Origin: Dehalococcoidia bacterium UBA6926
Lineage (GTDB): Bacteria; Chloroflexota; Dehalococcoidia; UBA6926
Direction of reading: 5' to 3'
Length of the DNA stretch: 64,000 nt
Assembly: GCA_002450835.1 (NCBI GenBank)
Contig: DKAM01000019.1
Location: 5,991 to 69,990, forward strand
In this document: positions 1 through 27,158 of the stretch, in pieces
Layout: each line of letters begins with the position of its first letter
Numbering within the stretch: the stretch's first letter is position 1
Notes under the pieces: model-generated
The model's database searches: none
Told to the model about the DNA's origin: nothing
Seen by the model: only the letters and a program-made list of their open reading frames with translations
Made by a program: the position numbers and the translations under genes

Positions 1-1184
1 TTGAAGTATTCAGGTCTAAGTCGTTGATTTTGGCTACAGGAGGTATTGGGCAGGTTTATTCTCCAACCACCAATGGCTTAGTGGTAACAGCTGACGGACA
101 GGCACTAGCCTATAAGGCAGGGGCAACCTTGATGGACATGGAGATGGTGCAGCACCATCCGACGACGATGCAGGCGAATGGCGTACTAATCACAGAAGGT
201 GCTCGAGGCGAAGGTGCATATTTACTTAACTCCAAAGGCGAAAGATTCATGGAGAAATATGCTCCTAATATGAAAGAGTTGGCTTCGCGAGATGTAGTCT
301 CTCGGGCTGAGACCATGGAGATCCGTGAAGGTAGAGGAGTCGATGGGTGTGTGTTCTTGGATCTAAGGCATCTAGGTCGTGATCTTATAATGACTAAATT
401 AAGCCAGATATATGAACTATCCCGTGATTATGCTAACACTAATATTTTAGAGGCACCTGTCCCGATTCAACCAGGCCACCATTATATTATGGGTGGCATA
501 AAGACTGATGTTGATGGTCGGACCTGGGATGTTTCAGGACAAAATAGATGGCAAGGTGTTGAAGGATTATTCGCAGCAGGTGAATGTGCGAATGTTAGTG
601 TCCATGGCGGTAACCGACTAGGGGGCAATTCGCTCCTTGATACTATAGTATTTGGTAGACGATCAGGACAGGGATCTACTGACTATGCTAAATCAACAGA
701 TTGGGTAAACATTGATGAAAATTCAGTTATTAGGGGTGCCGAAGATAAAATTAAAGAAATCTTTGCTCGTCCTTCTGGAGGTCTTAGAACTGCAAACCTA
801 AGGTCAGAGATGGGTAGCGCTATGAACGACGGGATCGCGGTATTCCGCAATGAAGAAGGCATGAAGAAGACATTGGAATCTGTTCGCTCGGTGCGCGATA
901 GGTTTCCAAAAATTTCATTAGACAATAAAGGCAAAATTTTTAACACAGATCTTCTTTCCGTATTAGAATTAGAATTTATGTTAGATGTAGCAGAGGTCAT
1001 TGGCATAGGCGCGATTGAACGTAAGGAAAGTAGAGGAGCACACGCTAGAGAAGATTATCCTGATCGAAACGATGAAGAATATCTCAAGCATACAGTGGTT
1101 AATCTAGATGAAAATGGCGAACCAAAACTAAATTATATCCCAGTTACAATGACGCAATGGGAGCCGCAAGTGAGGACATATTAA
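1..1184 (+). CDS. sdhA: Succinate dehydrogenase/fumarate reductase flavoprotein subunit, 5'-truncated at window edge (C-terminal ~390 aa present)
   Basis: Frame is open from nt 3 with no upstream stop. ILATGGIGQVY FAD-binding motif; HYIMGGIKTD and ERKESRGAHAREDYPDRNDEEY are SdhA/FrdA active-site/capping-domain signatures. Immediately followed by sdhB. Confidence 0.9.
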   Translation, partial: EVFRSKSLILATGGIGQVYSPTTNGLVVTADGQALAYKAGATLMDMEMVQHHPTTMQANGVLITEGARGEGAYLLNSKGERFMEKYAPNMKELASRDVVSRAETMEIREGRGVDGCVFLDLRHLGRDLIMTKLSQIYELSRDYANTNILEAPVPIQPGHHYIMGGIKTDVDGRTWDVSGQNRWQGVEGLFAAGECANVSVHGGNRLGGNSLLDTIVFGRRSGQGSTDYAKSTDWVNIDENSVIRGAEDKIKEIFARPSGGLRTANLRSEMGSAMNDGIAVFRNEEGMKKTLESVRSVRDRFPKISLDNKGKIFNTDLLSVLELEFMLDVAEVIGIGAIERKESRGAHAREDYPDRNDEEYLKHTVVNLDENGEPKLNYIPVTMTQWEPQVRTY

Positions 1185-2129
1185 ATGGATGCGACGTTTA
1201 AAGTTCAAAGGTATGATCCCGAGTCCCAAGAAGGGTCTCATTATGAAGAATTTGAAGTAGACCTTCCAGAATATGGAAGTGTTCTAGAGGGACTGTTGGA
1301 CATAAGGGATCATCAGGATGGATCTCTGTCTTTAAGATGTTCTTGCAGAAGTGCGATATGCGGTTCTTGTTCTATGAAGATAAATGGCGAGTCTCGTTTA
1401 GCTTGTAAAGCTATGGTATCGGACATTAAGGAAACTGAAGGAGACATAATAACCGTAGAGCCGATGGGCAATATGCCAGTGATAAAAGATTTGGTTGTTA
1501 ATATGGATATGTTTTGGGAAAAAGTTGAAAAAATTGAACCATATCTCCAGCCAACTGGCCCTGAACCCGAAAAAGAATATCTTGTTTCAAATGATGAAAT
1601 GATGAAACTTGCCGTAGCTATGAATTGCATCATGTGTGGAGCATGTGTATCTGACTGCACCGTTTTAGAGGTAGATAAAACATTTTTGGGTCCGGCAGCT
1701 TTGGCAAAAGCATTCAGATTTGCGGCTGACCCACGTGATGGTGCCCAAGAAGAAAGACTTGAGTCCTATAACGAGCCTACCGGGGTTTGGGATTGCACTA
1801 GATGTTTTATGTGCGTTCAGGCATGTCCCAAGGACGTTGCTCCTATGGAACGTATCATGGATATACGATCCATGGTTGTTGAAAACGAGATAGACAAAAA
1901 AGGAAGAGGGCAGAGGCACATACAAGGGTTTATTGATGGAGTGAAACATAGTGGCAGGCTTGATGAGTTTGGACTTGCTAGAAAGACGTTCGGATTTCCT
2001 ATATGGGCTTTTGAACTAGCTGATTTGGGCATCAGACGAATTCTTCGATTGAGGTTACCTCCTATAATTCATAAAAGTATAAAGTCTGCGAAAAATGTTA
2101 AAAAGATTTTTGAAAACTTGGGGGTTTAG
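1185..2129 (+). CDS. sdhB: Succinate dehydrogenase/fumarate reductase iron-sulfur subunit with ~70-aa basic C-terminal extension
   Basis: Three Cys clusters: CSCRSAICGSCSM (2Fe-2S), CIMCGACVSDC (4Fe-4S), CTRCFMCVQACPK (3Fe-4S). ATG overlaps the sdhA stop (TAAATGG). 314 aa versus the usual ~240-260. Confidence 0.9.
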   Translation: MDATFKVQRYDPESQEGSHYEEFEVDLPEYGSVLEGLLDIRDHQDGSLSLRCSCRSAICGSCSMKINGESRLACKAMVSDIKETEGDIITVEPMGNMPVIKDLVVNMDMFWEKVEKIEPYLQPTGPEPEKEYLVSNDEMMKLAVAMNCIMCGACVSDCTVLEVDKTFLGPAALAKAFRFAADPRDGAQEERLESYNEPTGVWDCTRCFMCVQACPKDVAPMERIMDIRSMVVENEIDKKGRGQRHIQGFIDGVKHSGRLDEFGLARKTFGFPIWAFELADLGIRRILRLRLPPIIHKSIKSAKNVKKIFENLGV

Positions 2130-2132
2130 GGT

Positions 2133-3017
2133 ATGCGTTATGCTTTTTGGCCAGGTTGCGTGTCTAAGGCAGGAACTCCAGAACTGTTTCCAGCTGCAAC
2201 CGCGGTCGCTAATAAGATCGGTATGGATTTAGTAGAGCTTGATCAAGCAAATTGCACAGGAGCTGGTGTTTTAGGTGAGCGTAATGAAGAGCTCGTCGAT
2301 ACCCTAAACGCACGTAATTTTGCGATGGCGGAGCAAATGGGATTAGATACTATTTTGACCATTTGTTCTACTTGTCAGGGAGTTATGAGCTCGGTCAATT
2401 ATAAACTCAGGGAAAAACCCGAATACTTAGCCAAGATTAATGAAAATTTAAAAGAAGAAGGCCTAGAATATAAAGGAACGGTTCGCGTAACCCATATGAT
2501 GTGGGCTGTGGTTGAAGAACTTGGGTTGGATAAACTTTCTGAGATGGTAGTAAATCCATTAACAGGATTACGGATCGCTCCATTTTATGGCTGTTATATT
2601 TTACGACCGCGGTATGTTTTGGGAATGGATGAACATCCGGATAGAACACAATATTTAGAGAAAATTATTGCGGCATTAGGAGCAGAGCCGATCGATTATG
2701 AAGGTAAGCTTCGATGCTGTGGATTCCCAATCATGACGATCAATCAAGATAATGGTCTAAAGATGGTTGCAAACCATACGTTAGAAGCTAAGGATAAAGG
2801 GGCCCATGCCTTAGTTACGCCGTGCCCTTTGTGTCATTTAAATTTGGATGAATTTCAACCAAGAGCAGCAAGCAAAGCAGGAGAATCAATAGATATGCCG
2901 GTACTGCATCTGCCTCAATTAATTGGGTCTGCTTTGGGGTTCAATGTCAAGGAAATGGGATTAAAAAGACATATAATATCCACAGATAATTTTGTTGAAA
3001 TAGCAGGTATCTCATAG
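2133..3017 (+). CDS. CCG-domain Cys-rich subunit (heterodisulfide reductase B-like; SdhE/SdhC of type E succinate:quinone oxidoreductases)
   Basis: Two Cys-rich CCG-like motifs (CSTCQG...; CCGFP...CPLCHLNLD). Lies directly after sdhA-sdhB with a 3-nt gap. No predicted transmembrane helices. Confidence 0.75.
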   Translation: MRYAFWPGCVSKAGTPELFPAATAVANKIGMDLVELDQANCTGAGVLGERNEELVDTLNARNFAMAEQMGLDTILTICSTCQGVMSSVNYKLREKPEYLAKINENLKEEGLEYKGTVRVTHMMWAVVEELGLDKLSEMVVNPLTGLRIAPFYGCYILRPRYVLGMDEHPDRTQYLEKIIAALGAEPIDYEGKLRCCGFPIMTINQDNGLKMVANHTLEAKDKGAHALVTPCPLCHLNLDEFQPRAASKAGESIDMPVLHLPQLIGSALGFNVKEMGLKRHIISTDNFVEIAGIS

Positions 3018-3765: not shown

Positions 3766-4695
3766 CTAAAGATTATCCATTGCATCAATTAATTCTTCGA
3801 CGGCTGCAATTGAATTATCAAACCCTGCCTTTTCTTCGTCTGTAAGCTCAAGCTCGATAATTTTTTCTACTCCCGACTCTCCCAATACAACTGGAACCCC
3901 AATGAATACGTTATTAACACCGTATTCACCTTCTAAATACGCTGCTGCTGGAACAACCCGTTTTTTGTCTAGGATTATTGCGTCTGCCATCTGAAGAACT
4001 GCTGCAGACGGAGCATAGAAAGCAGAACCTGTTTTCAATAAGCTGACGATTTCACCGCCACCTTGTCGAGTACGTGTAACTATTGCATCAATTTTTTCAC
4101 TAGACATCCAGTGGTCCAGAGGTAAACCTCCCACAGTTGCATACCTTACGAGCGGGACCATCGTGTCTCCATGACCTCCTAGCACATATGCTTGTACGTC
4201 TTCTACCGATACATTTGTTTCTTGTGCTATAAAAGTTCTCATTCTTGCGGTATCAAGGACACCTGCCATTCCTAACACTCGTTCTTTGGGGAATCCCGAT
4301 TGTTTGTAAGCTTCGTACACCATTGCATCCAGAGGATTGGATACTATGAGGAGTATAGAGTTTGGCGACTTTTGTACTACCTCTTTCACAACACTTTGCA
4401 TTATTGATTTATTAGTACGAAGTAAGTCATCTCGCGTCATACCGGGTTTTCGAGCTATACCAGCTGTAATTACAACGAGATCCGAATCCTTAGTTTCATC
4501 ATATGTGTTTGTACCAGTCACATTACTGTCATATCCAAGGATCGGTCCACTCTCTGCCAGATCCAAGGCTTTTCCTTGAGGCATACCTTCTACTACGTCT
4601 ACTAATACAATATCAGCATAGTCTCTTTCTGCTATTCTTTGTGCAACGGTCGCACCTACGTTTCCACCGCCAACGACTGTGATCTTTTTTCTCAT
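3766..4695 (-). CDS. mdh: Malate dehydrogenase (LDH-like family)
   Basis: N-terminal [18 protein letters not shown]-binding motif. [14 protein letters not shown] has the substrate-specificity Arg (MDH, not LDH). Catalytic His in [15 protein letters not shown]-aaac Shine-Dalgarno sequence before the ATG. Confidence 0.9.
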
Positions 4696-4785
4696 GTTTC
4701 CCCCAATGATTCATTATAAAATATTCTTTAAAATTGATACAGTTCTATAATTGAATTAATTCTACGGTTAGATATAATAGCGCAA

Positions 4786-6684
4786 TTACTTACTGGGACC
4801 AACTACTACTAAAGCATCTCCTTTAGCGACTCTGTCACCACTATTTCTGGGTAGCTCTAGTATAATGCCGTCTGCGGATGCCGGCAGCATATTTTGCATT
4901 TTCATAGCTTCTATGACAACCAAAGTATCGCCTTTTTTAACTTTGTCACCGATTTTAACTTCGTATCTTATAACCAACCCTGGCATTGGAGCTGTTATGA
5001 GGTAGCCTCCTTCAGGTGCAGACAAACCAGATTTAGTTACTTCCGTGGATGACATCGCTGGTGGTGGCTGCAAAGGCCGCCCTCCTTGGTTCGGATCTCT
5101 AAAGCTTCTAATTCTAGGGCCAGTTGTGTTGGAAGACTCCACTATTATGTCAAATTCCTTTTCACCTACGTAAACTTTGTATGACCTAGAGTTCGCTCCT
5201 GGACCAACCGCCGGTTTGTTTACATCCTTTGTATTTGGTTCCTCTTGTTTTTCCGTAGAATAGGATTCTTTTTTAGGAGGGTCATCGATTCCGTGCTTCC
5301 AACGAAGGAACTGAAGTCCGGTTACAGGATATAGCGCATAAATTAGAACATCTCCTTCATCCGAGGAAATGTCGATGATATCCTCTTTTGCTTTGGCAAG
5401 TTCTGGTTCGAGGATATCAGCCGGTTTTTCTTTGGTAGGAGTTTCACCGCGTTCGTATCCCTTTAAAACCTTTTTTACCACCCGTTTATTCATAGGCAAG
5501 GGTGGTTGCCCGTATAGCCCAAATACGTAGTCTTTGATTTGCTGGCTTACCATCTCGTATCTACCGAACAAAACATTTTGAACTGCTTGAATACCTATAA
5601 TCTGGCTCGAGGGTGTTACTAACGGTGGATATCCAAGGTCTTTTCTAGTTTTCGGTAGTTCCTTTAGTACATCGGGGAGTTTGTCTAAAGCGTCAGCCTC
5701 AGCGAGCTGTGAAAGTAGGTTTGAGGTCATTCCTCCGGGAACTTGATGGGTTAGAACACTGGTATCTATTGTACTGAATTTTGATGGAGCCATAAAATCT
5801 GAGTAATGTTCTTGTAAGATGGTTTCTAATTTATCGCTGGCATCAATTATTCTATTTAGGTTAAAACCGGTGCTTCTTTCTGTTTTGTCTAAAGTCACAA
5901 TCAGAGGCTCCAATGGGGGATGCGCAGTTCTGAGTGATAATGGTGCTAAATCTGTATCGACAATATCTATTCCTGCTTCTATTGCTTTTAATTGGGTCAT
6001 TTGGCCCATACCGGATGTGTAGTGGGCATGTAATTCTATGGGTATAGAAACTGCATCTTTCAAAGCACTAACTAACTCGTATGCATCGTACGGAGATAAA
6101 AGAGCTGCCATATCTTTAATACACAAAGAATCGGCACCCATCTTCTCAATAGTTTTAGCTTTTTCGATAAAATAGTCTAAATTGAATACTGGTCCTCCCA
6201 TCTGCTGTTCGGTTACCGAGTAGCAGATAGTTCCTTGAACATGCTTTCCAGCTTCCTTTATAGCATCAAATGAAGATTCAAAATTCCGATGATCGTTTAA
6301 CGCATCGAAAACACGAAATATATCTATTCCTGACTTGGCAGAATATCTAATAAACTCTTTAACTACGTCGTCGGGGTAATTCCTGTAACCCACGAGATTT
6401 TGCCCTCTTAGTAGCATCATAAAAGGAGTTTTTGGTGCTACCTTTTTTAGGTCCTTTATACGCTCCCATGGATCTTCATTTAAATATCTCGTCATTACGT
6501 CAAAGGTAGCTCCACCCCATACTTCGAGAGCGGCGAATCCAACTTTATCAAGCATCCCTATTATTTCTTTTATGTGATTCGTCCGCATCCTTGTTGCCAT
6601 AATTGATTGATGCCCATCACGAAGGGTCACATCTGTGACTTGGACTTTAGAATCAGAGTTACGAAAAATATCTTTTGGATCCAT
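4786..6684 (-). CDS. Carboxyltransferase 5S-type subunit fused to a C-terminal biotinyl (BCCP) domain (PycB / OadA / transcarboxylase-5S-like)
   Basis: N-terminal VTDVTLRDGHQS TIM-barrel carboxyltransferase motif. C-terminal IEAMKMQN biotin-attachment motif preceded by a Pro/Ala linker. Confidence 0.85.
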   Translation of the reverse strand: MDPKDIFRNSDSKVQVTDVTLRDGHQSIMATRMRTNHIKEIIGMLDKVGFAALEVWGGATFDVMTRYLNEDPWERIKDLKKVAPKTPFMMLLRGQNLVGYRNYPDDVVKEFIRYSAKSGIDIFRVFDALNDHRNFESSFDAIKEAGKHVQGTICYSVTEQQMGGPVFNLDYFIEKAKTIEKMGADSLCIKDMAALLSPYDAYELVSALKDAVSIPIELHAHYTSGMGQMTQLKAIEAGIDIVDTDLAPLSLRTAHPPLEPLIVTLDKTERSTGFNLNRIIDASDKLETILQEHYSDFMAPSKFSTIDTSVLTHQVPGGMTSNLLSQLAEADALDKLPDVLKELPKTRKDLGYPPLVTPSSQIIGIQAVQNVLFGRYEMVSQQIKDYVFGLYGQPPLPMNKRVVKKVLKGYERGETPTKEKPADILEPELAKAKEDIIDISSDEGDVLIYALYPVTGLQFLRWKHGIDDPPKKESYSTEKQEEPNTKDVNKPAVGPGANSRSYKVYVGEKEFDIIVESSNTTGPRIRSFRDPNQGGRPLQPPPAMSSTEVTKSGLSAPEGGYLITAPMPGLVIRYEVKIGDKVKKGDTLVVIEAMKMQNMLPASADGIILELPRNSGDRVAKGDALVVVGPSK

Positions 6685-6923
6685 TAGTACGATCTCCGAT
6701 AGTTGTTAGTGAGTGCTATGCTTTTTTGGTGGTGGTGTTTGTATTTAGAGTCAGTGGGTATTCTATTGGACATTTGAGACAATCGGCCTCTTAACCTCCA
6801 TTTGTTAGTTGGCTCGCTCAGATTTCTCAATCTTATCTCTTCTTCATAATCATTTATCACACTTAGAATTGCTGCGCTAAGTTCTTCATCTATCGAATCT
6901 ATATCCAGATTAGTACTATTCAT
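6684..6923 (-). CDS. Small ORF, possible acyl-CoA carboxylase epsilon-like subunit
   Basis: 79 aa between the 12S and 5S genes. N-terminus EELSAAILSVINDYEEE resembles the EELAALVAVL-type motif of AccE/PccE epsilon subunits. Stop overlaps the 5S ATG. Weak evidence. Confidence 0.35.
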   Translation of the reverse strand: MNSTNLDIDSIDEELSAAILSVINDYEEEIRLRNLSEPTNKWRLRGRLSQMSNRIPTDSKYKHHHQKSIALTNNYRRSY

Positions 6924-6924
6924 T

Positions 6925-8478
6925 TTAGAGAGGTATATTCCCGTGTTTCTTTGAAGGAACTGAATCAGTTTTATTTTCTAACATTGATAGCGCGCTGACT
7001 ATCATTTTCCTTGTATCTGAGGGGTCAATGACATCCTCTATGTAACCCTTGCTAGCTGTAACATATGGGTTTGCGAATTGTTCTTGATATTCTTGAGTAG
7101 CAAGTTTTCTTTCCATTTCTGAATTTTCTGATTCTCTAATTCGATTTCTAAAAATAATATTAGCGGCTCCTTCAGCTCCCATAACAGCCATTTCTGCGCC
7201 TGGCCAAGCATAATTTATGTCTCCTCTGAGCATCTGGGAGGACATTACAATTAATGCTCCACCATACGCTTTTCTTGTCACAATTCCTACCTTTGGCACG
7301 GTTGCTTCAGTATATGCATACAATAGTTTGGCTCCATGCGTTATGATGCCGTTATGTTCTTGATCTACGCCTGGTAAGTAGCCGGGAACATCAGTTAGGG
7401 TAACTAGTGGAATATTAAAGCAATCACAAAATCTAACGAATCGAGCGGCTTTTATGGCAGCTTTGATGTCTAAAGCTCCGGACATGACCATAGGTTGTTG
7501 ACCTATTATGCCTGTTGTCTTCCCGTTAAATCTGCCAAACCCCACTACAATGTTTTGGGCCCATGATTGGTGGACTTCCAAAAAGCCCCCACCAATATCC
7601 ACTATCGAATCAATGAAATCTCTCATGTCATAGGGTTGGTTTGGGTCTTCTGGAACTAAGTCCATCAATTCTGGGGTTGGTCTACTAGGATTATCTGCAG
7701 TATCTGCAAACGTAGAATCCTCCAAGTTATTCGATGGAAGAAAGCTTAGCAGATCCCTGGCAAGGTCTAAGCTTTCTTCCTCACCATCAGTGCCGAAATG
7801 TGCTACTCCACTCATTGTTGTGTGAGCATCGGCACCACCTAATTGCTCGTGTGTTACTTCCTCACCGGTAACGGTTTTTATTACGTCTGGACCGGTTATA
7901 TACATTTGGCCTACGCCTTTTTCCATTATAATGAAATCAGTTAGAGCAGGGCTGTAAACGGCTGCGCCAGCAGCTGGACCCATTATGATACTAATTTGAG
8001 GAATCACTCCAGAGGATAAGACATTCCTTTGAAAGATTTGCCCTACACCCCAGAGGCTGTCAACACCTTCTTGAATCCTAGCCCCGCCTGAATCCAAGAT
8101 ACCTATTATTGGGGACCCAGTTTTTAGTGCTAGGTCTTGGACCTTCATAGTTTTTTTTGAAGCAACCAATGACATGGTTCCCCCTAAAACAGTGAAGTCA
8201 AAGGCGTATACAAAAACTGTTCTACCATCAATTTTCCCATACCCTGTTACTACTGAATCACCTGGGACTTTTCTGTCTGCTATTCCAAATTCATTGACAT
8301 CATGCGTTACAAAAGGATCTAGTTCAATAAAAGTTCCAGGATCTAAAAGGCGGTTGATTCTCTCATGCGCAGTCATTTTGCCCCGTGCATGTTGTCTTTC
8401 TATTGCCGCTTCGCCCCCACCTTGAGACGAGGCAGATCGACGTTTGGATAATTCATCAAGTTTATCTTGCATAGTCAT
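6925..8478 (-). CDS. pccB: Propionyl-CoA carboxylase beta chain / methylmalonyl-CoA carboxyltransferase 12S subunit
   Basis: Canonical N-terminus (DKLDEL...GGG...IERQHARGKMTAHERI..LLDPGTF.E) and two crotonase-like carboxyltransferase halves. Confidence 0.9.
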   Translation of the reverse strand: MTMQDKLDELSKRRSASSQGGGEAAIERQHARGKMTAHERINRLLDPGTFIELDPFVTHDVNEFGIADRKVPGDSVVTGYGKIDGRTVFVYAFDFTVLGGTMSLVASKKTMKVQDLALKTGSPIIGILDSGGARIQEGVDSLWGVGQIFQRNVLSSGVIPQISIIMGPAAGAAVYSPALTDFIIMEKGVGQMYITGPDVIKTVTGEEVTHEQLGGADAHTTMSGVAHFGTDGEEESLDLARDLLSFLPSNNLEDSTFADTADNPSRPTPELMDLVPEDPNQPYDMRDFIDSIVDIGGGFLEVHQSWAQNIVVGFGRFNGKTTGIIGQQPMVMSGALDIKAAIKAARFVRFCDCFNIPLVTLTDVPGYLPGVDQEHNGIITHGAKLLYAYTEATVPKVGIVTRKAYGGALIVMSSQMLRGDINYAWPGAEMAVMGAEGAANIIFRNRIRESENSEMERKLATQEYQEQFANPYVTASKGYIEDVIDPSDTRKMIVSALSMLENKTDSVPSKKHGNIPL

Positions 8479-8635
8479 AAGTGGCGCTTTAAATTTCTAT
8501 ATTAATCTTGAAATACATTTATCATAGGATGGTAGCAGAGCCGGTTAGAAGGTGACAAGCCTATAATAGGCATGAGTATGTATAAAAATTATTGATAAAG
8601 ATGCTGGATTCAATATGATTATTGGTCTAACTTAG

Positions 8636-15205: not shown

Positions 15206-17614
15206 CTACTTGATTGCACCTAGTTTTGTGAAGTCCTCGATTTCTTTTTGTGATAACCCCAGTATTGTTCGAAATACATAATCGTTATCATCACCGATTA
15301 AGGGCGTTCTACCATTAGCCCATGATGCAGATATTGATGGTATTCCAGGTAACCCTTGATGTGATAACTTGCCCCATGGAGCCTGGTCGTTATCGACTAC
15401 ATGGGCTCTGGATCTCATTTGTTGGTTGTTCAGCAGGTGTTCGCCTTTTAGCATAACTCCTGCAGGCACTCCTAAAGATTGAAGCAGATGCATCAATGGA
15501 TGAGGGTAATGAGAAGAAGACCAATTAGCGATATTTGAATCTAGCTCCTTTCTATTAGCTCTCCTATTGCTAATAGAGTTAAATTTTTTATCACTAACCC
15601 ACTTTGGTTCGCCCAGCGCAGTTTTCAATCCTTGCCACTCTTCTTCGGTTTCCACAGCTATGATTACCCATTCATCTTCTCCAAGACAAGGGTACGCACC
15701 ATAGGGAGAATACTGCTGACCAAGTATTTCGTTATACCCTTGTGCATCCCATTCTTTTGTATTTACTGTGCTATCTAATATAGAAGGTCCCATAAGTGCG
15801 CCTTGAGCCTCCAGTTGTGCTAATTCAATGAATTGTCCTTCTCCTGTTAAGTCGCGGAACTCTATGGCGGCCAGTGAGGATAGTGCGACAAGGGCTGCTC
15901 CTAAATAATCTGGTATGACTATTTTACCGTGTGATTCCATAGGTGATTCTTCGTGGCCCCACATATGTATCATTCCGGTGTATGCGAGTAGCTGCGTTCC
16001 CCATGTGACCCAGTCCGTAAGTGGTCCATCGAGCCCCATACCTGGTGCAGTTATTTGTATTAATCCAGGGTTAATGGCTCTTGTTTTGTCCCTCCCAAAT
16101 CCTAACCGATCAATAACTCTAGGAGAAAAATTATCGATGAAAATATCGCTCTGTTTTAGTAGTGCTTCCAATAATAGTTTTCCATCACTATTTCTCAAAT
16201 CGAATGTCGCGCTCAGCTTATTTCGATTCATATCTGGGTAAAGGACACCTTCTCTAGTTGCGACTAGTAATTCAGATTCAAGTTTTATTACCTCGGCTCC
16301 ATAAAACCCCATAAACATAGTACCTATTGGACCTGCAAAAAATCTCGAGAGATCGGCTACGCGGATACCCTTTAACATCGGGCTATCTTTTGTTTCTAAT
16401 TTTTCTTTGGGGGCTGCATTTGTCTTCTTTCTCGATCCTGTACTTAATTCATCTAGGATTTCATCCTGATGTTGTCCTAGAGTTGGAGAAGACCGCCAAA
16501 CTTTCATCGGGGTTTTTTCCATTTTAAAGGGAAATCCCGGAGCCTCATATTCACCTATAATGGGATGATCGATTTTTTGGACCCATTTCCTCTGTTTTAA
16601 GTGATTGCTTTGCATAAAATCCCCAGGTGTGTTCACTGGGGCGCAAGGGAGACCTCGCTTCTGACATTCATTTACAAAATCTTCGGACGTAAATTGGGCG
16701 ACGAAATCTTGCATGGCCATACTAATTACATCCGCGTTTTCTTCGCGGTAGTCCGGGTTATCCCATTCAACCCCTGATAACAGTGGATCTTCCATCCATT
16801 CCCTTGTAATTTTATGCCAATGAGGAAGAATAAAAATTGACATATATATATATTTTCCATCTTTACAGCGAAAAATATTGGAAGCGCCTGCTTGCCCTTT
16901 TACCCCATGGCGCTTTAGTACTTCATTTCTTCCGGAGTACCGTGCAATAGCGCTCATAGCCATGTAGGAGATACTTTCTGTTAACGCTTGATCAATTTTT
17001 TGGCCTTGTCCTGAGCGCCTGGCATGACGTATGCCAGCAAGTGTCAAATATGATGAGTGTACTCCAGCTAATTGATAGGTTATATGATTCGGAGTTACTA
17101 CAGGGGGCATCAGATCATCGCCGTGAACTGACATAAACCCGGATAGTGCCTCCACAATCGCGTGGGACCCTTTATAGGCTGCGTAAGGGCCAGTTTCTCC
17201 GAATGGTGTTATGGATGTTGTAACTAAGCGTTTATTTCTTCCTAAAAGGATTTCTTGGCCTAAGCCAAGTTCTTCTAGATACCCTGGATTATTTGATTCA
17301 ATAAGAGCATCTGCAGTTTCTATAAGCTGCAAAAATGTTTCCTTATCTTTAGGCGAGCCCACTATATCGAGGGCAATAGATCTCTTGTTTAGATTTGCAT
17401 TGATAAAACTTAGGCTTCGCTCAGGGTCTTCTATATTATTGGCAAAAGGTGGCAGTAATCTATTGGGGTCTCCTTTAAGCGGTTCAATTTTAATGATATC
17501 TGCGCCTAAATCGCCGAGCCATCGGGTTGCATAGGATGAAGGGATGCCGCCATATTCTAAGATCCGTAAGTGACCCAGCGATGCCCTATCAGGTGTATGT
17601 ATATTTTCTGGCAT
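15206..17614 (-). CDS. Fused tandem di-domain family III CoA-transferase (CaiB/BaiF family), paralog 1
   Basis: 802 aa. Residues ~1-400 and ~410-802 each contain a complete CaiB-like domain (HLRILEYGGIPSSYATRWLGDLGADIIKIE and GIRVADLSRFFAGPIGTMFMGFYGAEVIKLE Rossmann N-termini). ~70% identical to the adjacent paralog. Confidence 0.8.
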   Translation of the reverse strand: MPENIHTPDRASLGHLRILEYGGIPSSYATRWLGDLGADIIKIEPLKGDPNRLLPPFANNIEDPERSLSFINANLNKRSIALDIVGSPKDKETFLQLIETADALIESNNPGYLEELGLGQEILLGRNKRLVTTSITPFGETGPYAAYKGSHAIVEALSGFMSVHGDDLMPPVVTPNHITYQLAGVHSSYLTLAGIRHARRSGQGQKIDQALTESISYMAMSAIARYSGRNEVLKRHGVKGQAGASNIFRCKDGKYIYMSIFILPHWHKITREWMEDPLLSGVEWDNPDYREENADVISMAMQDFVAQFTSEDFVNECQKRGLPCAPVNTPGDFMQSNHLKQRKWVQKIDHPIIGEYEAPGFPFKMEKTPMKVWRSSPTLGQHQDEILDELSTGSRKKTNAAPKEKLETKDSPMLKGIRVADLSRFFAGPIGTMFMGFYGAEVIKLESELLVATREGVLYPDMNRNKLSATFDLRNSDGKLLLEALLKQSDIFIDNFSPRVIDRLGFGRDKTRAINPGLIQITAPGMGLDGPLTDWVTWGTQLLAYTGMIHMWGHEESPMESHGKIVIPDYLGAALVALSSLAAIEFRDLTGEGQFIELAQLEAQGALMGPSILDSTVNTKEWDAQGYNEILGQQYSPYGAYPCLGEDEWVIIAVETEEEWQGLKTALGEPKWVSDKKFNSISNRRANRKELDSNIANWSSSHYPHPLMHLLQSLGVPAGVMLKGEHLLNNQQMRSRAHVVDNDQAPWGKLSHQGLPGIPSISASWANGRTPLIGDDNDYVFRTILGLSQKEIEDFTKLGAIK

Positions 17615-17674
17615 TTGTCACCTCCGTCTCATATATGAGTAGCTCTAGTTTGAAAAAAACAGAGCAAATACAAT

Positions 17675-20080
17675 TTAGTTGATTGCGCCTGAGTTGATAC
17701 CCTCACTTATATCTTTTTCTGTCATTCCTAGTATTTCTCCAAAAACATAATCGTTATGGTCTCCGATCCAAGGAGGTAAACCATCTGCGTGAGCTTCTGA
17801 CATTCCTGGAATAGCTGGGAGGCCTTGGTGTGATAGGTCTCCCCATGGAGGTTCATGTATATCTACAATGTGCCCTCTCTTCCTTAGATGTATATTGCTG
17901 TAAAGATCTTCTCCATTTAACACGGCACCAGCTGGCACTCCGTTATTTTGCAATATACGCATTGCTTGATACCGGGTGTATTCAGAACTCCATGCACCTA
18001 TTTGCGCATCTAAATCCTTTTGGTTTTCTTTGCGTTTCTCATGGGAAGAATACTTTTCATCATTAATCCAAGTGGGATTTCCAAGTGCATTAACTAAGCC
18101 TTCCCATTCCGATTCTTCAGATACAGCTATAACAACCCAATTATCGTCTCCTTTACATGGATATGCGCCATATGGAGCGTAGTGGTCGCCTAATATTTCT
18201 CCATAACCCAAAGCATCCCATTCATTTTGGTTAACCGTTGCATCTAATATAGAAGGCCCCATTATGGCTCCTTGCGCTTCTACCTGGGCAAGTTCAATAA
18301 ATTGACCAATTCCGGTTCGGTCGCGATATTCGATAGCCGCAATTGAGGATAAAGCAACAAGAGAAGCTCCCAAATAATCTGGTACAACCAGTTTCCCGTG
18401 AGCATCCATGGAGGATTCTTCGAAAGCCCACATGTGTGTTAGTCCTGTATATGCGACTAGCTGATTCCCCCAAGTTACCCAGTTTGTTAACGGCCCATCT
18501 AGCCCCATACCGGGTGCTGTAATTTGTATTATGCCAGGGTTAATCGTTTGAACTCGATCCCAACCAAATCCTAAACGGTCTATGACACGAGGAGAGAAAT
18601 TGTCGATTAGAACGTCACTTTTTATTAAAAGTTCATCCAATAAAGATTTTCCTTGATCATTCCTTAGGTCGAAAGTCGCGCTTAGCTTATTTCTATTCAT
18701 ATCAGGATATAAAACCTGTTCTCGGTTTGCTACCAATAGCTCGCTTTCAAGTTTTATTACCTCAGCTCCATAAAATCCCAAAAACATGGTGCCTATAGGA
18801 CCAGCAAAGAAACGCGTAAGATCAGCGACACGGATGCCACTAAGCATAGGGGCTTCTGGAGATACAAGTTCAGTATTCTGGTGAGTTTCTTTTTTTGTTT
18901 CAAGGGTTTCTAGTTCTGCAAGTATTTCTTCTTGGTGCTCGCCCAAAGTTGGAGAATGCTTCCATGCCCGCATAGGTGTTTTCTCCATTTTAAATAGGAA
19001 CCCGGGAGCTTGGTATTCACCAATTACTGGATGGTGAAGAGTTTGTATCCAATTTCTCGATTTGAGTTGTTCGCTGTTCATGAATTCTCCAGGAGTATTC
19101 ACAGGGGAACATGGTAACCCACGCTCTTGACATTGTGCGACGAAATCTGCAGCATCAAATTGTTCAATAAATGATTGTAAAAGTACATTTATAACGTCGC
19201 CATTATCTCCTCTATATTGAGCGTCATCCCATTCTTCTCCTGATAGTACAGGATCCTCCATCCATTCCCTTGTTATTTTGTGCCAGTGGGGAAGTATGTA
19301 TATCGATATATAGATATATTTCCCATCCTTACACCGAAAAATATTAGAAGCGCCTCCTTGCGGTTTCGCTCCATTTCGCTCCACAATCTCACTTCTATCG
19401 GTATATCTTGCTACAGCGCTAGAGCCCATATAGGTAATACTTTCTTGAATCGATTGGTCTATTTGTTGGCCCTTGCCAGACCTTTTACTATGGCGGATTC
19501 CTGCAAGTGTTAGATAAGCACCATGGACGCTCGCCACTTGATAAGTAATATGGTTAGGGGTAACTACCGGTGGCATAATGTCATCCCCGTGGGCACTCAT
19601 GAAACCTGCAAGTGCTTCAACGATCCCGTGAGAACCTCGGTATTTTGAGTACGGACCAATTTGTCCAAAAGGGGTTATGGAAGTGGTTACAAGATTTTCA
19701 TTGGTATTTAGTAAAACCTCTTGGGAAAGGCCCCAACCATCAAACGTTCCCGGACGGGTTGATTCAACAAGAGCATCCGCGCTAGCTATTAATTTTAGAA
19801 ACGTTTCTTTATCTTTTTCTGAACTTTCTAGGTCCAGGACTATGGATCGTTTATTTAGATTTGCATTTATAAAAGTTAGGCTCTTTTCTGGATCAGGAAC
19901 GTTTCCAGAAAAAGGTCCAAGCGTCCTTGCACTGTCACCGCCGGGTTTCTCAATCTTAATAACGTCGGCCCCTAAATCTCCTAGCCATCTAGTTGCGTAC
20001 GACGCCGGGATATCTCCATATTCTAGTATTCTAAGATGGCTCAAAGCGCCATGATTTGGCTTATCTAGTGGTGTCGTCAT
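17675..20080 (-). CDS. Fused tandem di-domain family III CoA-transferase (CaiB/BaiF family), paralog 2
   Basis: 801 aa, same architecture. Co-linear with paralog 1 over its full length (about 70% identity by eye). A 60-nt spacer separates the two genes. Confidence 0.8.
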   Translation of the reverse strand: MTTPLDKPNHGALSHLRILEYGDIPASYATRWLGDLGADVIKIEKPGGDSARTLGPFSGNVPDPEKSLTFINANLNKRSIVLDLESSEKDKETFLKLIASADALVESTRPGTFDGWGLSQEVLLNTNENLVTTSITPFGQIGPYSKYRGSHGIVEALAGFMSAHGDDIMPPVVTPNHITYQVASVHGAYLTLAGIRHSKRSGKGQQIDQSIQESITYMGSSAVARYTDRSEIVERNGAKPQGGASNIFRCKDGKYIYISIYILPHWHKITREWMEDPVLSGEEWDDAQYRGDNGDVINVLLQSFIEQFDAADFVAQCQERGLPCSPVNTPGEFMNSEQLKSRNWIQTLHHPVIGEYQAPGFLFKMEKTPMRAWKHSPTLGEHQEEILAELETLETKKETHQNTELVSPEAPMLSGIRVADLTRFFAGPIGTMFLGFYGAEVIKLESELLVANREQVLYPDMNRNKLSATFDLRNDQGKSLLDELLIKSDVLIDNFSPRVIDRLGFGWDRVQTINPGIIQITAPGMGLDGPLTNWVTWGNQLVAYTGLTHMWAFEESSMDAHGKLVVPDYLGASLVALSSIAAIEYRDRTGIGQFIELAQVEAQGAIMGPSILDATVNQNEWDALGYGEILGDHYAPYGAYPCKGDDNWVVIAVSEESEWEGLVNALGNPTWINDEKYSSHEKRKENQKDLDAQIGAWSSEYTRYQAMRILQNNGVPAGAVLNGEDLYSNIHLRKRGHIVDIHEPPWGDLSHQGLPAIPGMSEAHADGLPPWIGDHNDYVFGEILGMTEKDISEGINSGAIN

Positions 20081-22803: not shown

Positions 22804-23256
22804 TTAGAGGTCAGGACATAGTTTCGCAACTGCTGTTCCTAACACACCATTAATAAACCCTCCTGATTTTTCGCTGCCGAAAGACTTAGCTAATCTTACA
22901 GCTTCGTTAATCGCGGCTTTTGGTGGAGTAATACCTTGGGTTATTTCGGTTAGGGCAATTCGCAAAACATTCCTGTCTACGATCGGTAACTGATTAACGG
23001 GATAATCTGGCGCGTATTCAGCGATTAAATTGTTAATCTCATGGTTTTTTTCGCTGTACGATTCCATCAAGCCTCTTGCGAACTGTTGAATAGTATTCTC
23101 TTCTTCTAAGTTTATTAGCCTTGATAAAGCTGTGACCGGATTATGGCGTACGCTGTCCCATTCATACATGGATTGGAGTACTAGACGCCGAGCTTTCCTT
23201 TTCGCGGCATGTGATATCACTAATACATCCTTTTCCGTAGGTATTTTAACTGCCAC
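22804..23256 (-). CDS. nusB: Transcription antitermination factor NusB
   Basis: KRKARRLVLQSMYEW ... IVDRNVLRIALTEI pattern. Confidence 0.8.
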   Translation of the reverse strand: MAVKIPTEKDVLVISHAAKRKARRLVLQSMYEWDSVRHNPVTALSRLINLEEENTIQQFARGLMESYSEKNHEINNLIAEYAPDYPVNQLPIVDRNVLRIALTEITQGITPPKAAINEAVRLAKSFGSEKSGGFINGVLGTAVAKLCPDL

Positions 23257-25059: not shown

Positions 25060-25452
25060 TTAAATATCGTTGACGTAAGAAACGATATCCCCCAAACTTG
25101 TTCCTGGGCCAAAAATCCCTTTGATACCTAGCTCTTCAAGTTCCTGATAATCTTGCTTAGGTATTATACCTCCAGCGAAAATTGCGACGTTATCTAACCC
25201 AGCATTTTGTAGCCCTTCGACGATTGCCGGGAATAGATCTAAATGTGCTCCAGACAGTATGCTTAGTCCTATGGCATCTACATCTTCTTGCAGGGCCGCC
25301 TGGACAATCATTTCTGGTGTCTGGCGTATCCCAGTATAGATGACCTCAAAACCTGCGTCCCTTAGTCCCCGTGCTACGACTTTTGCTCCCCTATCGTGGC
25401 CATCGAGCCCGGGCTTGGCGATCAGTATTCTTTTTGGTGTGGTGGTAGACAC
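25060..25452 (-). CDS. Methylmalonyl-CoA mutase B12-binding subunit (stand-alone C-terminal domain)
   Basis: [25 protein letters not shown] (DxHxxG cobalamin motif) and the flavodoxin-like fold signature. Confidence 0.9.
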
Positions 25453-25485
25453 GTAATATTCTCCTAACTAGTTCAAGTATTTCTA

Positions 25486-26310
25486 CTAAATTTCTCCAGC
25501 ATGGTTCGCGTTTTCATCTGTTAATAATACGAGAGTTCCGACAAAATCCAAAGGGTGTAAGGCCGTTAAAACTGGATCTCCGTTGTCGACAATAACTCGA
25601 ATATTCTTGTCTTCGGCTCTTTTAGCAATTACTGAGCTATCATCATTCTCTATAACTATGGCGTGCAACCCACTGCCAAAAATCTTTATTGCTTTTGCGA
25701 CTGGACCCGTTGAATTTAGTTGTTCTGCAAATTCAACTTCACTATTTTTTGTATCGAGCCATCCAGTATCCATTTCATAACTTTCAGATACGGCGGTTCT
25801 TTTTATTGGCATTTTAAACAAATCGGACCAGAGTTTTAGGTCTTTTTTCATATTCTCAGTTCTTAGAGTCACATGATGTAGAGAGATATCGATATTAGGA
25901 TCAAGAGCGGTTTCGGGCTCCTCAATAATACTGAGCCTTGTACCGCCTGTAGAATCAGGGTCCATCAAAATTGATTTCTTACCGTAAATCTCATTTTGGC
26001 GAATAGATGATTTGGCCCCTGAGGATTCAATGTGCTTTTGAAGAGAAGCAAGGTTATCTGTTGCCATACATATGTCGTAAAGGCCTTCTCCTCTGGTTGA
26101 AAGAAGCACCGCTGCGTCAGATTCCCCCGGCGATGGTGCTATCAGTTGGATGTTAGCATTTTTTGTGGGAATTGAGATCGTTTGTCCGAGATCAATGGTT
26201 TTTAAGCTATTTTCTTTAGGAGAAATACCGAGTACTGATTCGATTTTTGAAGCGGCAGCATCAATATCATTTACCAGTATTGAAACGTGTTTAATTTTGT
26301 TTATTGACAT
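25486..26310 (-). CDS. Two-domain VOC family protein, methylmalonyl-CoA epimerase-like (paralog A)
   Basis: 274 aa, two complete VOC domains (IKHVSILVNDID... and LHHVTLRTEN...). Located between the mutase catalytic and B12 genes. Confidence 0.6.
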   Translation of the reverse strand: MSINKIKHVSILVNDIDAAASKIESVLGISPKENSLKTIDLGQTISIPTKNANIQLIAPSPGESDAAVLLSTRGEGLYDICMATDNLASLQKHIESSGAKSSIRQNEIYGKKSILMDPDSTGGTRLSIIEEPETALDPNIDISLHHVTLRTENMKKDLKLWSDLFKMPIKRTAVSESYEMDTGWLDTKNSEVEFAEQLNSTGPVAKAIKIFGSGLHAIVIENDDSSVIAKRAEDKNIRVIVDNGDPVLTALHPLDFVGTLVLLTDENANHAGEI

Positions 26311-27119: not shown

Positions 27120-27158
27120 CTATCGATAACCTGCCTTATTTGTTTTACTGCTCACAAC

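What the first reader, a model, noticed from the sequence alone, without database searches (positions are those of the whole stretch)
4786..8478. 12S carboxyltransferase - epsilon-like ORF - 5S carboxyltransferase::BCCP fusion with no biotin carboxylase: candidate ATP-independent transcarboxylase
The cluster encodes a methylmalonyl-/propionyl-CoA-specific 12S-type carboxyltransferase (PccB-like). It also encodes a pyruvate/oxaloacetate-specific 5S-type carboxyltransferase that carries its own biotinyl domain (EAMKMQN). No biotin carboxylase (ATP-grasp) gene is in the window, and no membrane beta subunit as a Na+-pumping decarboxylase would need. This is the parts list of the Propionibacterium methylmalonyl-CoA:pyruvate transcarboxylase (12S + 5S + 1.3S), with the 1.3S biotin carrier fused to the 5S subunit. 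It sits next to mdh and the SDH/FRD genes, and ~17 kb from the methylmalonyl-CoA mutase/epimerase genes. Alternatively it is PccB plus PycB sharing a biotin carboxylase encoded elsewhere.
Basis: partly seen in the sequence, partly recalled or inferred. Interest (0 to 1): 0.7.

Follow-up and report, generated by a model that had tools for sequence, protein, structure and literature searches.

The report
Probable ATP-free propionyl-CoA transcarboxylase operon
A marine Dehalococcoidia bacterium carries a tightly coupled three-gene module, also found in several other bacterial phyla, that most likely moves a carboxyl group between oxaloacetate and propionyl-CoA without ATP; this is a known kind of enzyme in a lineage where pipelines label the genes as ordinary carboxylase subunits.

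Summary
On the minus strand, 8478-4786 encodes a 517-aa 12S/PccB-type carboxyltransferase, a 79-aa ORF, and a 632-aa pyruvate/oxaloacetate carboxyltransferase with a C-terminal biotinyl domain (K595). The three are translationally coupled, and mdh follows. No biotin carboxylase or Na+-pump beta subunit lies in about 80 kb around the genes, nor within 8-10 kb of 36 related loci.

In an NJ tree the large protein falls in a 100%-supported clade. Twenty of 26 assessable members have a 12S gene directly upstream and none has a biotin carboxylase nearby. True PycB relatives show the reverse pattern. The classical Propionibacterium 5S, OadA and a solved PycB all lie outside this clade, so the protein is not a 5S ortholog.

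The small ORF is conserved in position and motif across phyla but matches no described family, so "epsilon-like" holds by position only.

The best reading is a methylmalonyl-CoA:pyruvate transcarboxylase of the kind described genetically in syntrophic propionate oxidisers. With mdh, SDH, mutase and epimerase nearby, it would oxidise propionyl-CoA to pyruvate without ATP.

Absence of a biotin carboxylase from the whole genome could not be tested. This is a new member of a known kind, of moderate interest.

The parts
6925..8478 (-). 12S/PccB-type acyl-CoA carboxyltransferase (517 aa). Both oxyanion motifs are present: DSGGARIQEG at residues 129-138 and KAYGGA at 403-408. Ile409 sits at the position equivalent to PccB residue 422.
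   Evidence: PF01039 at 3e-184 and TIGR01117 at 747 bits, below its cut-off of 998.8. PDB hits to PccB, AccD5 and 12S at 580-640 bits. Motif positions.
6684..6923 (-). 79-aa small subunit of an undescribed family, with no transmembrane helix. It has a conserved N-terminal helix motif (L-S-A-A-I-L-S-V-I-x-x-Y) and a W..GR...M..R motif.
   Evidence: It starts 1 nt after the 12S stop (TAA-A-ATG), and its stop overlaps the next start (TAATG). It is conserved in the same position in 14 loci from Dehalococcoidia, Cloacimonadota, Desulfobacterota and Bacteroidales. A profile search gave 59 relatives, all annotated as hypothetical. Three of three contexts looked up show the same three-gene module. No Pfam, NCBIfam or PDB match.
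4786..6684 (-). Pyruvate/oxaloacetate carboxyltransferase fused to a biotin carrier (632 aa). The TIM-barrel domain maps to about 5833-6651, the PYC_OADA domain to 5248-5757 and the biotinyl domain to 4804-4998. Metal and substrate residues are R22, D23, Q26, K190, H219 and H221. The biotinyl lysine is K595.
   Evidence: PF00682, PF02436 and PF00364. NF006761 at 703 bits, above its cut-off of 402; all equivalog models fall below their cut-offs. Alignments to 5ks8, 2nx9 and 1rqb. Residue positions. Clade A membership.
3766..4695 (-). NAD malate dehydrogenase, 90 bp downstream on the same strand and probably co-transcribed. It would regenerate the oxaloacetate that donates the carboxyl group.
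   Evidence: TIGR01763 at 469 bits, above its cut-off of 352. No terminator-like site lies in the 90-bp gap. mdh follows the module in all Dehalococcoidia and SAR202 relatives.
8529..8558 (-). Promoter-like site upstream of the 12S gene (TTGTCA-18-TACCAT with an extended TG).
   Evidence: This is a consensus match only, and the number of such sites in the region is not above the shuffle expectation.
24..3017 (+). Succinate dehydrogenase/fumarate reductase: SdhA (5' end cut by the window), SdhB and a CCG-domain SdhE. It converges on the mdh end of the operon and is syntenic in relatives.
25060..28844 (-). Methylmalonyl-CoA mutase large subunit (27159-28844), methylmalonyl-CoA epimerase fused to a second VOC domain (26310-27119), an epimerase-like paralog (25486-26310) and the mutase B12-binding subunit (25060-25452).
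   Evidence: TIGR00641 at 767 bits, TIGR03081 at 181 bits and TIGR00640 at 172 bits. The TMY and RGTYIYPP motifs are present. Their link to methylmalonyl-CoA specificity rests on my recollection of the mutase literature.
15206..20080 (-). Two tandem double-domain family III CoA-transferases. They are candidates, with no specific evidence, for the succinyl-CoA to succinate and propionate activation step.
   Evidence: PF02515 at 533 and 539 bits. No NCBIfam equivalog is reached.

Best explanation
The three translationally coupled genes most likely encode one soluble biotin enzyme, a methylmalonyl-CoA:pyruvate (propionyl-CoA:oxaloacetate) transcarboxylase.

**Proposed mechanism.**
1. The biotin on K595, in the C-terminal carrier domain of the 632-aa subunit, is carboxylated at that subunit's own metal-dependent TIM-barrel site. 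Oxaloacetate donates the carboxyl group and pyruvate is released.
2. The carrier domain then swings to the 12S-type carboxyltransferase. There the carboxyl group passes to propionyl-CoA, giving (S)-methylmalonyl-CoA.
3. The 79-aa protein is proposed to act as an assembly subunit that holds the two catalytic subunits together.
4. Epimerase and B12 mutase convert the product to succinyl-CoA.
5. SDH, a fumarase encoded elsewhere, and the adjacent Mdh regenerate oxaloacetate.

The net result is propionyl-CoA oxidised to pyruvate at no ATP cost.

**Shown:** domain content, catalytic residues, operon coupling, conservation of the module, and absence of a flanking biotin carboxylase.

**Inferred:** physical complex formation, ATP independence, the role of the small subunit, and the physiological direction.
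For: 1. **Coupled genes.** The junctions are TAA-A-ATG and TAATG, which implies stoichiometric co-production.

2. **Phylogeny and gene context.**
   - The bipartition separating clade A (30 sequences including the window) from all other sequences has 100/100 bootstrap support.
   - In clade A, 20 of 26 assessable members have a 12S gene directly upstream and none of 30 has a biotin carboxylase within 10 kb.
   - In the other clade, none has a 12S gene and 18 of 56 have an adjacent biotin carboxylase.
   - Six more loci were reached through other proteins. All six have the 12S gene directly upstream of the 5S::BCCP gene and no biotin carboxylase nearby. A small ORF is called between the two genes in four of them.

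3. **Catalytic residues.** All needed residues are present in both transferases, together with the MKM biotinylation site.

4. **Single carrier.** Only one biotin carrier is encoded in the module, and it is fused to one of the two transferases. The two active sites therefore have to share it.

5. **Neighbourhood.** mdh lies directly downstream and SDH is adjacent. Mutase and epimerase lie 17-20 kb away. In SAR202 the operon also carries fumarase.

6. **Precedent.**
   - The Pelotomaculum mmc cluster has mmcH (12S-like), mmcI (epsilon), mmcJ (biotin carrier), mmcK (mdh) and mmcL (5S). It is read there as a propionyl-CoA:oxaloacetate transcarboxylase (PMC8892533, PMC6046458).
   - In S. fumaroxidans the mdh gene Sfum_0460 sits beside the carboxyltransferase gene Sfum_0461 (PMC3570798).

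7. **No pump subunit.** No OAD_beta gene occurs in the window or in any flank examined.
Against: - The whole genome was not searched. A biotin carboxylase almost certainly exists somewhere, because fabD at 23246-24280 implies type II fatty-acid synthesis and so a need for malonyl-CoA. That enzyme could also load this carrier domain.
- The large subunit is not an ortholog of the only biochemically and structurally characterised 5S. Its best solved match is a true PycB (5ks8, 476 bits).
- It passes only the domain-level PycB model, and public pipelines name it pyruvate carboxylase subunit B.
- Six clade A members have no 12S gene next to them.
- In relatives the operon also contains an isocitrate-dehydrogenase-like gene. 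The neighbourhood is therefore general TCA cycle, which fits an anaplerotic carboxylase as well.
- No enzyme of this clade has been purified, as far as the papers I could search show.
Confidence: 0.66

Rival explanations
1. The genes encode ordinary ATP-dependent carboxylases that share parts. The 12S protein would be the beta subunit of a propionyl-/acetyl-CoA carboxylase. The 632-aa protein would be PycB of a two-subunit pyruvate carboxylase. A biotin carboxylase encoded elsewhere would load the fused carrier. The operon would then supply the TCA cycle with succinyl-CoA and oxaloacetate.
For: - The architecture is identical to PycB, and the best PDB hit is a PycB.
- The protein passes NF006761, the domain-level PycB model.
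- Pipelines name it PycB.
- The neighbourhood in relatives is TCA cycle: icd, mdh, fumarase and sdh.
- Ile at the position equivalent to PccB residue 422 would suit an enzyme that also accepts acetyl-CoA. The role of residue 422 is from my memory of Diacovich et al. 2004.
- fabD in the window implies that a biotin carboxylase exists somewhere in the genome.
- The SAR202 literature calls such genes PCC (PMC5395668).
Against: - No biotin carboxylase lies within 8-10 kb of any of 36 clade A loci, against 18 of 56 loci in the PycB clade.
- The protein lies outside the clade that is linked to biotin carboxylase genes, with 100/100 support.
- The PycB equivalog models are not reached: NF010644 scores 556 against a cut-off of 734, and NF010645 scores 484 against 1182.
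- Translational coupling of two different transferases around a single carrier is unexplained if the two enzymes work separately.
- Even with a biotin carboxylase present, two transferases sharing one carrier would still catalyse the transcarboxylation.
Confidence: 0.22
2. The genes encode the soluble part of a Na+-translocating decarboxylase (oxaloacetate or methylmalonyl-CoA decarboxylase) whose membrane beta subunit is encoded elsewhere.
For: High scores to the oadA model (TIGR01108, 656 bits) and the mmdA model (TIGR01117, 747 bits). A small subunit sits between the two genes, as in mmd and oad operons.
Against: - Both scores are below their cut-offs (756.5 and 998.8).
- No OAD_beta gene is in the window, its flanks or any related locus.
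- The small ORF is highly charged and has no transmembrane segment (sequence), unlike OadG or MmdD anchors.
- V. cholerae OadA lies outside the clade.
- Pump operons normally carry the beta gene.
Confidence: 0.03
3. The module is a transcarboxylase with a different or broader acyl-CoA partner. For example, it could make malonyl-CoA from acetyl-CoA and oxaloacetate for fatty-acid synthesis, or act on other short acyl-CoAs from the breakdown of dissolved organic matter.
For: All Dehalococcoidia copies of the linked 12S have Ile, Leu or Val, never Asp, at the position equivalent to PccB residue 422. The window holds fabD. It also holds two unassigned double CoA-transferases.
Against: The specificity rule comes from actinobacterial enzymes and is recalled from memory. 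Mutase and epimerase in the window point to methylmalonyl-CoA. No direct evidence exists.
Confidence: 0.07

Closest known systems
Propionyl-CoA:oxaloacetate transcarboxylase genes of syntrophic propionate oxidisers: the Pelotomaculum thermopropionicum mmc cluster (mmcH, I, J, K, L) and Syntrophobacter fumaroxidans Sfum_0460/0461 and Sfum_1223
   Same: - A 12S-like transferase, a small 'epsilon' gene, a biotin carrier, mdh and a pyruvate/oxaloacetate transferase lie together, with no biotin carboxylase.
- They are linked to mutase, epimerase and SDH in a methylmalonyl-CoA pathway (PMC8892533, PMC6046458, PMC3570798).
- Desulfobacterota and Cloacimonadota relatives fall in the same clade A as the window protein.
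   Different: - The carrier is fused to the pyruvate-side transferase here instead of being a separate mmcJ gene.
- Here the gene order is 12S, small ORF, 5S::BCCP, mdh, so mdh follows the pyruvate-side transferase. In the Pelotomaculum gene list mdh (mmcK) comes before the 5S gene (mmcL).
- The host is a planktonic marine Dehalococcoidia with about 40% GC, not an anaerobic syntroph.
- The mutase and epimerase genes lie 17-20 kb away rather than in one cluster.
Propionibacterium freudenreichii subsp. shermanii transcarboxylase (EC 2.1.3.1; 12S, 5S and 1.3S subunits; PDB 1on3, 1rqb)
   Same: - The same two half-reactions are expected.
- The 12S-type transferase is a close homolog (582 bits to 1on3).
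- The pyruvate-side subunit has the same fold family and the same metal and substrate residues.
- No biotin carboxylase is involved.
   Different: - The pyruvate-side subunit is not orthologous. NF008984 scores 488 against a cut-off of 827.
- In the NJ tree 1rqb groups with OadA and PycB outside clade A.
- The carrier is fused rather than being a free 1.3S subunit.
- An extra conserved small subunit is present.
Two-subunit pyruvate carboxylase PycA/PycB (Methylobacillus flagellatus 5ks8; methanogen PycAB)
   Same: The carboxyltransferase plus C-terminal carrier architecture is identical. This is the best solved match (476 bits over residues 12-630).
   Different: The window protein belongs to a separate clade. 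No PycA gene is nearby in any relative, and a 12S gene sits upstream instead.
Na+-translocating methylmalonyl-CoA and oxaloacetate decarboxylases (MmdABCDE, OadABG)
   Same: The alpha-type transferases are homologous, and small accessory subunits are encoded between the large genes.
   Different: There is no beta pump subunit. The small ORF is not membrane-anchored and shows no detectable similarity to the families searched.

Membership tests
Transcarboxylase EC 2.1.3.1 (P. shermanii type) | 12S-type carboxyltransferase acting on methylmalonyl-/propionyl-CoA | tested here: met
   PF01039 at 3e-184. 582 bits to 1on3 and 580-640 bits to PccB-type enzymes. Both oxyanion motifs are present.
Transcarboxylase EC 2.1.3.1 (P. 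shermanii type) | 5S subunit orthologous to the characterised 5S | tested here: not met
   NF008984 scores 488 bits against a cut-off of 827. 1rqb groups with 2nx9 (87/100), and both group with 5ks8 (86/100), outside clade A, which has 100/100 support.
Transcarboxylase EC 2.1.3.1 (P. shermanii type) | Pyruvate/oxaloacetate transferase active site (metal ligands Asp, carbamylated Lys and two His; Arg and Gln for the substrate) | tested here: met
   R22, D23, Q26, K190, H219 and H221 align with the 1rqb residues in LRDAHQS, KDM and HCH. The assignment of roles to these residues is from my memory of the 5S structure papers.
Transcarboxylase EC 2.1.3.1 (P. shermanii type) | Biotin carrier shared by both transferases | tested here: met
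   There is a single Biotin_lipoyl domain (PF00364, 7e-18) with EAMKMQN at 592-598. It is fused to the pyruvate-side subunit rather than being a free 1.3S subunit.
Transcarboxylase EC 2.1.3.1 (P. shermanii type) | No biotin carboxylase partner; ATP-independent reaction | not testable with these tools
   None was found in about 80 kb around the genes or within 8-10 kb of 36 related loci. The whole genome and the enzyme activity could not be examined.
mmc-type transcarboxylase cluster of propionate oxidisers | 12S-like gene, small gene, biotin carrier, mdh and pyruvate-side transferase clustered without a biotin carboxylase, in a genome with mutase, epimerase and SDH | tested here: met
   Window genes at 3766-8478, 24-3017 and 25060-28844, compared with the gene list in PMC8892533. 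The carrier is fused here.
Two-subunit pyruvate carboxylase (PycB) | Reaches a PycB equivalog model | tested here: not met
   NF010644 scores 556 against a cut-off of 734, and NF010645 scores 484 against 1182. Only the domain-level model NF006761 is passed (703 against 402).
Two-subunit pyruvate carboxylase (PycB) | Partner PycA biotin carboxylase, commonly adjacent | tested here: not met
   Zero of 36 clade A loci have one nearby, against 18 of 56 PycB-clade loci. A distant gene cannot be excluded.
Propionyl-CoA carboxylase (PccA/PccB/PccE) | Asp at the PccB residue-422 specificity position | tested here: not met
   Ile409 aligns with PccB residue 422, and human PCCB has Asp there. All linked Dehalococcoidia copies have Ile, Leu or Val. 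The rule itself is recalled from Diacovich et al. 2004.
Propionyl-CoA carboxylase (PccA/PccB/PccE) | Epsilon subunit of family PF13822 | tested here: not met
   The window ORF gives no hit even at E <= 1. One of 14 homologs hits at E = 0.022.
Na+-translocating decarboxylases (Oad/Mmd) | Membrane beta subunit (OAD_beta) and a membrane-anchored gamma or delta subunit | tested here: not met
   No OAD_beta gene is in the window, its flanks or the related loci. The small ORF has no hydrophobic segment. TIGR01108 (656 against 756.5) and TIGR01117 (747 against 998.8) are below their cut-offs.

The most novel reading that the evidence does not exclude
The clade A protein (pyruvate-side transferase fused to a biotin carrier), the linked 12S and the undescribed small subunit form a transcarboxylase that arose separately from the Propionibacterium enzyme. 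Abundant oxic-ocean Dehalococcoidia and SAR202 would use it in place of ATP-dependent propionyl-CoA carboxylase, which would mean that current PccB/PycB annotations of these lineages mis-state their carbon and energy budget. In the extreme version these streamlined genomes have no dedicated PccA or PycA at all. The enzyme, with an aliphatic residue at the PccB-422 position, would then also make malonyl-CoA from acetyl-CoA and oxaloacetate.
Probability: 0.3. Interest if true: 0.6.

Novelty: new member of a known kind. Interest (0 to 1): 0.38.

Why it matters
If the reading is right, a widespread marine bacterial lineage feeds propionyl-CoA (from odd-chain and branched lipids, amino acids and DMSP-type compounds) into central metabolism without spending ATP. 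It would use oxaloacetate as the carboxyl donor and yield pyruvate rather than a net C4 gain. That changes metabolic models built on the automatic labels "propionyl-CoA carboxylase beta" and "pyruvate carboxylase subunit B".

The work also defines a well-separated clade of pyruvate-side carboxyltransferases, and a conserved small protein found only as "hypothetical protein" in the databases. Together these can serve as a genomic marker for this enzyme type in uncultured phyla. No member of the clade appears to have been purified, so it is a tractable biochemical target.

Tried and rejected
1. **Whole-genome search for a biotin carboxylase.** This was not possible. Walking along the 308-kb and 665-kb contigs is limited to proteins encoded in the window. 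One look-up failed because the called start codon differs. One succeeded and added only about 6 kb. I dropped this because only the 120 closest hits are listed and I had no Dehalococcoidia biotin carboxylase to start from.

2. **Assigning the small ORF to a family.** Pfam and NCBIfam at E <= 1 and a PDB profile search gave nothing meaningful. The PDB hits to gp41 constructs reflect only a shared helical composition. The profile search of the protein database returned only hypothetical proteins.

3. **Similarity scores for the 12S protein.** They do not separate transcarboxylase, PCC and decarboxylase members, which all score 580-640 bits. The 12S protein on its own therefore says nothing about its partner.

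4. **First bootstrap run.** It timed out and was redone with a faster distance routine.

5. **Promoter and terminator scans.** They gave no more sites than shuffled sequence and are not used as evidence beyond noting that no terminator lies before mdh.

6. **Literature searches.** Searches linking transcarboxylase with Dehalococcoidia, SAR202 or Chloroflexi found nothing relevant.

7. **Structure prediction.** It was not run. A monomer model would not distinguish the rival explanations.

Full report
**What is there**

The minus strand between 8478 and 3766 carries four genes in one direction.

- The first gene (6925-8478) encodes a 517-aa carboxyltransferase of the PccB/12S/MmdA family. It hits PF01039 at 3e-184 over almost its whole length and TIGR01117 at 747 bits. 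It scores 580-640 bits against every solved propionyl-CoA carboxylase beta subunit, AccD5 and the Propionibacterium 12S subunit.
- The second gene (6684-6923) encodes a 79-aa charged protein with no family match.
- The third gene (4786-6684) encodes a 632-aa protein with an HMGL-like TIM barrel, a PYC_OADA domain and a C-terminal biotinyl domain. The motif EAMKMQN lies at residues 592-598, and the residues R22, D23, Q26, K190, H219 and H221 align with the active site of solved homologs.
- The fourth gene (3766-4695) is malate dehydrogenase, with TIGR01763 above its cut-off.

The 12S stop is followed after one base by the start of the small ORF. The stop of the small ORF overlaps the next start codon (TAATG). 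No terminator-like site lies in the 90 bp before mdh.

SdhA, SdhB and a CCG-type SdhE converge on this operon at 24-3017. A split methylmalonyl-CoA mutase with two epimerase-like genes lies at 25060-28844. Two double-domain family III CoA-transferases lie at 15206-20080.

**What is absent**

A motif search and a tblastn search with a real PycA biotin carboxylase found nothing in the window. The same searches readily found biotin carboxylases in other loci. Pfam or NCBIfam scans covered every ORF of at least 110 aa that is not nested inside a larger annotated gene. They found no ATP-grasp domain and no OAD_beta pump subunit. The same metagenome contig was read about 10 kb further left and 6 kb further right, with the same result.

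**Source organism**

Identical proteins occur on Tara Oceans and JGI marine contigs of up to 665 kb. The nearest genomes, at 66-67% identity, are complete 1.7-1.9 Mb chromosomes of uncultured Dehalococcoidia. SAR202 proteins are 57% identical. The window has about 40% GC.

**Comparative evidence**

I collected 80 loci encoding relatives of the 632-aa protein, plus further loci by exact look-up.

A neighbour-joining tree of the transferase domain splits cleanly. One clade of 30 sequences, here called clade A, has 100/100 bootstrap support. It holds the window protein and sequences from Dehalococcoidia, SAR202, Cloacimonadota, Desulfobacterota, Bacteroidales and Krumholzibacteria.

- In clade A, a 12S-type gene lies directly upstream in 20 of the 26 loci with enough upstream sequence. 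No biotin carboxylase occurs within 10 kb of any of the 30.
- In the other clade (archaeal and bacterial PycB), no locus has a 12S gene and 18 of 56 have a biotin carboxylase next door.

If clade A had the adjacency rate of the PycB clade, finding none would be very unlikely, even allowing for only about ten independent lineages.

In Dehalococcoidia the wider block is syntenic. It reads folK-folP, then divergently 12S, the small ORF, 5S::BCCP, usually an isocitrate-dehydrogenase-like gene, and mdh, followed by a convergent sdhE-B-A. SAR202 adds fumarase. The window lacks the isocitrate-dehydrogenase-like gene.

**The small ORF**

A short ORF lies between the two large genes in 14 loci from four phyla. 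These ORFs share an N-terminal helix motif (K-K-x-A-A-I-x-A-A-V-x-x-Y) and an invariant Trp followed by G-R...M..R.

A profile of them retrieves 59 proteins of 38-91 aa, all unnamed and without Pfam domains. I looked up three of these from the small-ORF side, and each lies between a Carboxyl_trans gene and an HMGL/PYC_OADA/Biotin_lipoyl gene. One is from the cultured Desulfocicer niacini and one from Lentimicrobium.

It is a real and specific component of the module. It matches neither ACC_epsilon nor any NCBIfam or PDB entry in a meaningful way. "Epsilon-like" therefore describes its position, not shown homology. It has no hydrophobic segment, so it is not an OadG-type membrane anchor.

**Relation to characterised enzymes**

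I added three solved transferase domains to the tree, with their sequences taken from the alignments. The Propionibacterium 5S groups with Vibrio OadA (87/100). Both group with the Methylobacillus PycB (86/100). All three lie on the far side of the clade A split.

The curated equivalog models agree. The 5S, OadA and PycB models all score below their cut-offs, and only a domain-level model is passed. The window protein is thus a member of the pyruvate/oxaloacetate carboxyltransferase superfamily but of none of its characterised subfamilies. Calling it "5S-type" is correct for expected function at most, not for ancestry.

**Mechanism proposed**

Two different carboxyltransferases and a single biotin carrier are made from coupled cistrons. 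Without a biotin carboxylase or a pump subunit, the simplest chemistry is carboxyl transfer between the two substrates. Oxaloacetate carboxylates the biotin at the TIM-barrel site and pyruvate leaves. The carrier then delivers the carboxyl group to propionyl-CoA at the 12S site, giving (S)-methylmalonyl-CoA.

Epimerase and mutase would give succinyl-CoA. SDH, fumarase and the co-transcribed Mdh would regenerate oxaloacetate. The net conversion is propionyl-CoA to pyruvate without ATP.

This is the methylmalonyl-CoA pathway as described for syntrophic propionate oxidisers. The Pelotomaculum mmc cluster lists a 12S-like gene, an epsilon gene, a biotin carrier gene, mdh and a 5S gene (PMC8892533, PMC6046458). 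In Syntrophobacter fumaroxidans mdh sits beside a carboxyltransferase gene (PMC3570798).

Complex formation, ATP independence, the role of the small protein and the direction of flux are all inferred.

**Rivals**

The main rival is that a biotin carboxylase encoded elsewhere loads the fused carrier, so that the operon encodes PCC and PC functions.

- It is supported by the PycB-like architecture, the pipeline names and the TCA-cycle neighbourhood.
- It is also supported by the likelihood that the genome has some biotin carboxylase, because fabD is in the window.
- It is weakened by the clade and context pattern and by the coupling of the two transferases around one carrier.
- I could not test it at genome level.

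Even if a biotin carboxylase can load this carrier, the two transferases would still exchange carboxyl groups through it. The two readings therefore overlap.

A Na+-pumping decarboxylase is unlikely, because no beta subunit appears in any of the loci.

A variant reading is a broader acyl-CoA range. Ile409 aligns with PccB residue 422, where PCC enzymes have Asp. All linked Dehalococcoidia copies have an aliphatic residue there. The significance of that position is recalled from the Streptomyces PccB literature and is a lead, not a test.

**Novelty and verdict**

Three things are new here.

- The host is an abundant marine Dehalococcoidia lineage. I found no paper that links it to a transcarboxylase. 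The SAR202 genome paper calls the function propionyl-CoA carboxylase.
- The pyruvate-side subunit belongs to a distinct, 12S-linked clade.
- A conserved, unnamed small subunit has been recognised.

I rate it a new member of a known kind with moderate interest (0.38). My confidence in the transcarboxylase reading is about two thirds.

Noticed in passing
window 15206-17614 and 17675-20080 (-): Two tandem proteins of about 800 aa, each made of two family III CoA-transferase domains. They are 66% identical to each other and reach no NCBIfam equivalog; the best partial matches are formyl-CoA, succinyl-CoA:mesaconate and succinate-glutarate transferases.
   Followed up: partly
window 25060-28844 (-); also L081 19436-21294: The methylmalonyl-CoA mutase is split. 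Two double-VOC-domain epimerase-like genes (269 and 274 aa) are inserted between its large and B12-binding subunits. Two more double-glyoxalase genes lie just left of the window, so this family looks expanded.
   Followed up: no
window 24-3017 (+): The succinate dehydrogenase has a CCG-domain (HdrB-like) SdhE subunit instead of classical membrane anchors (type E). It is conserved next to the carboxyltransferase operon in all Dehalococcoidia relatives examined.
   Followed up: partly
L086 12026-13231, L088 12028-13119, L089 12395-13597, L090 12092-13186, L091 11962-13050: Relatives carry an isocitrate-dehydrogenase-like gene between the 5S::BCCP gene and mdh. The window has only a 90-bp gap there. 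The SAR202 locus L086 also has fumarase alpha and beta genes after mdh.
   Followed up: partly
L089 10001-12316 (protein P0097, 771 aa): A clade relative on a 3.0-Mb contig carries two biotinyl domains in tandem at the C-terminus of the pyruvate-side transferase.
   Followed up: no
window 6925-8478 (-), residue 409: The 12S-type transferase has Ile where PccB has residue 422, the Asp specificity determinant in PCC enzymes. Every linked Dehalococcoidia or SAR202 copy has Ile, Leu or Val there, which hints at relaxed acyl-CoA specificity.
   Followed up: partly
window 39487-40950 (-): A malic enzyme with an N-terminal ACT domain. It offers a second route from malate to pyruvate in the same neighbourhood.
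   Followed up: no
L004, L005, L006, L011, L018, L070: Six clade A members have no 12S gene within the available upstream sequence. In L018 the unfused transferase is followed by genes of 596 and 173 aa whose function I did not check. The clade is therefore not exclusively 12S-linked.
   Followed up: no
window 30444-32708 (+): A molybdopterin-binding subunit of the xanthine dehydrogenase/aldehyde oxidase family. No FAD or Fe-S partner subunit was annotated next to it.
   Followed up: no
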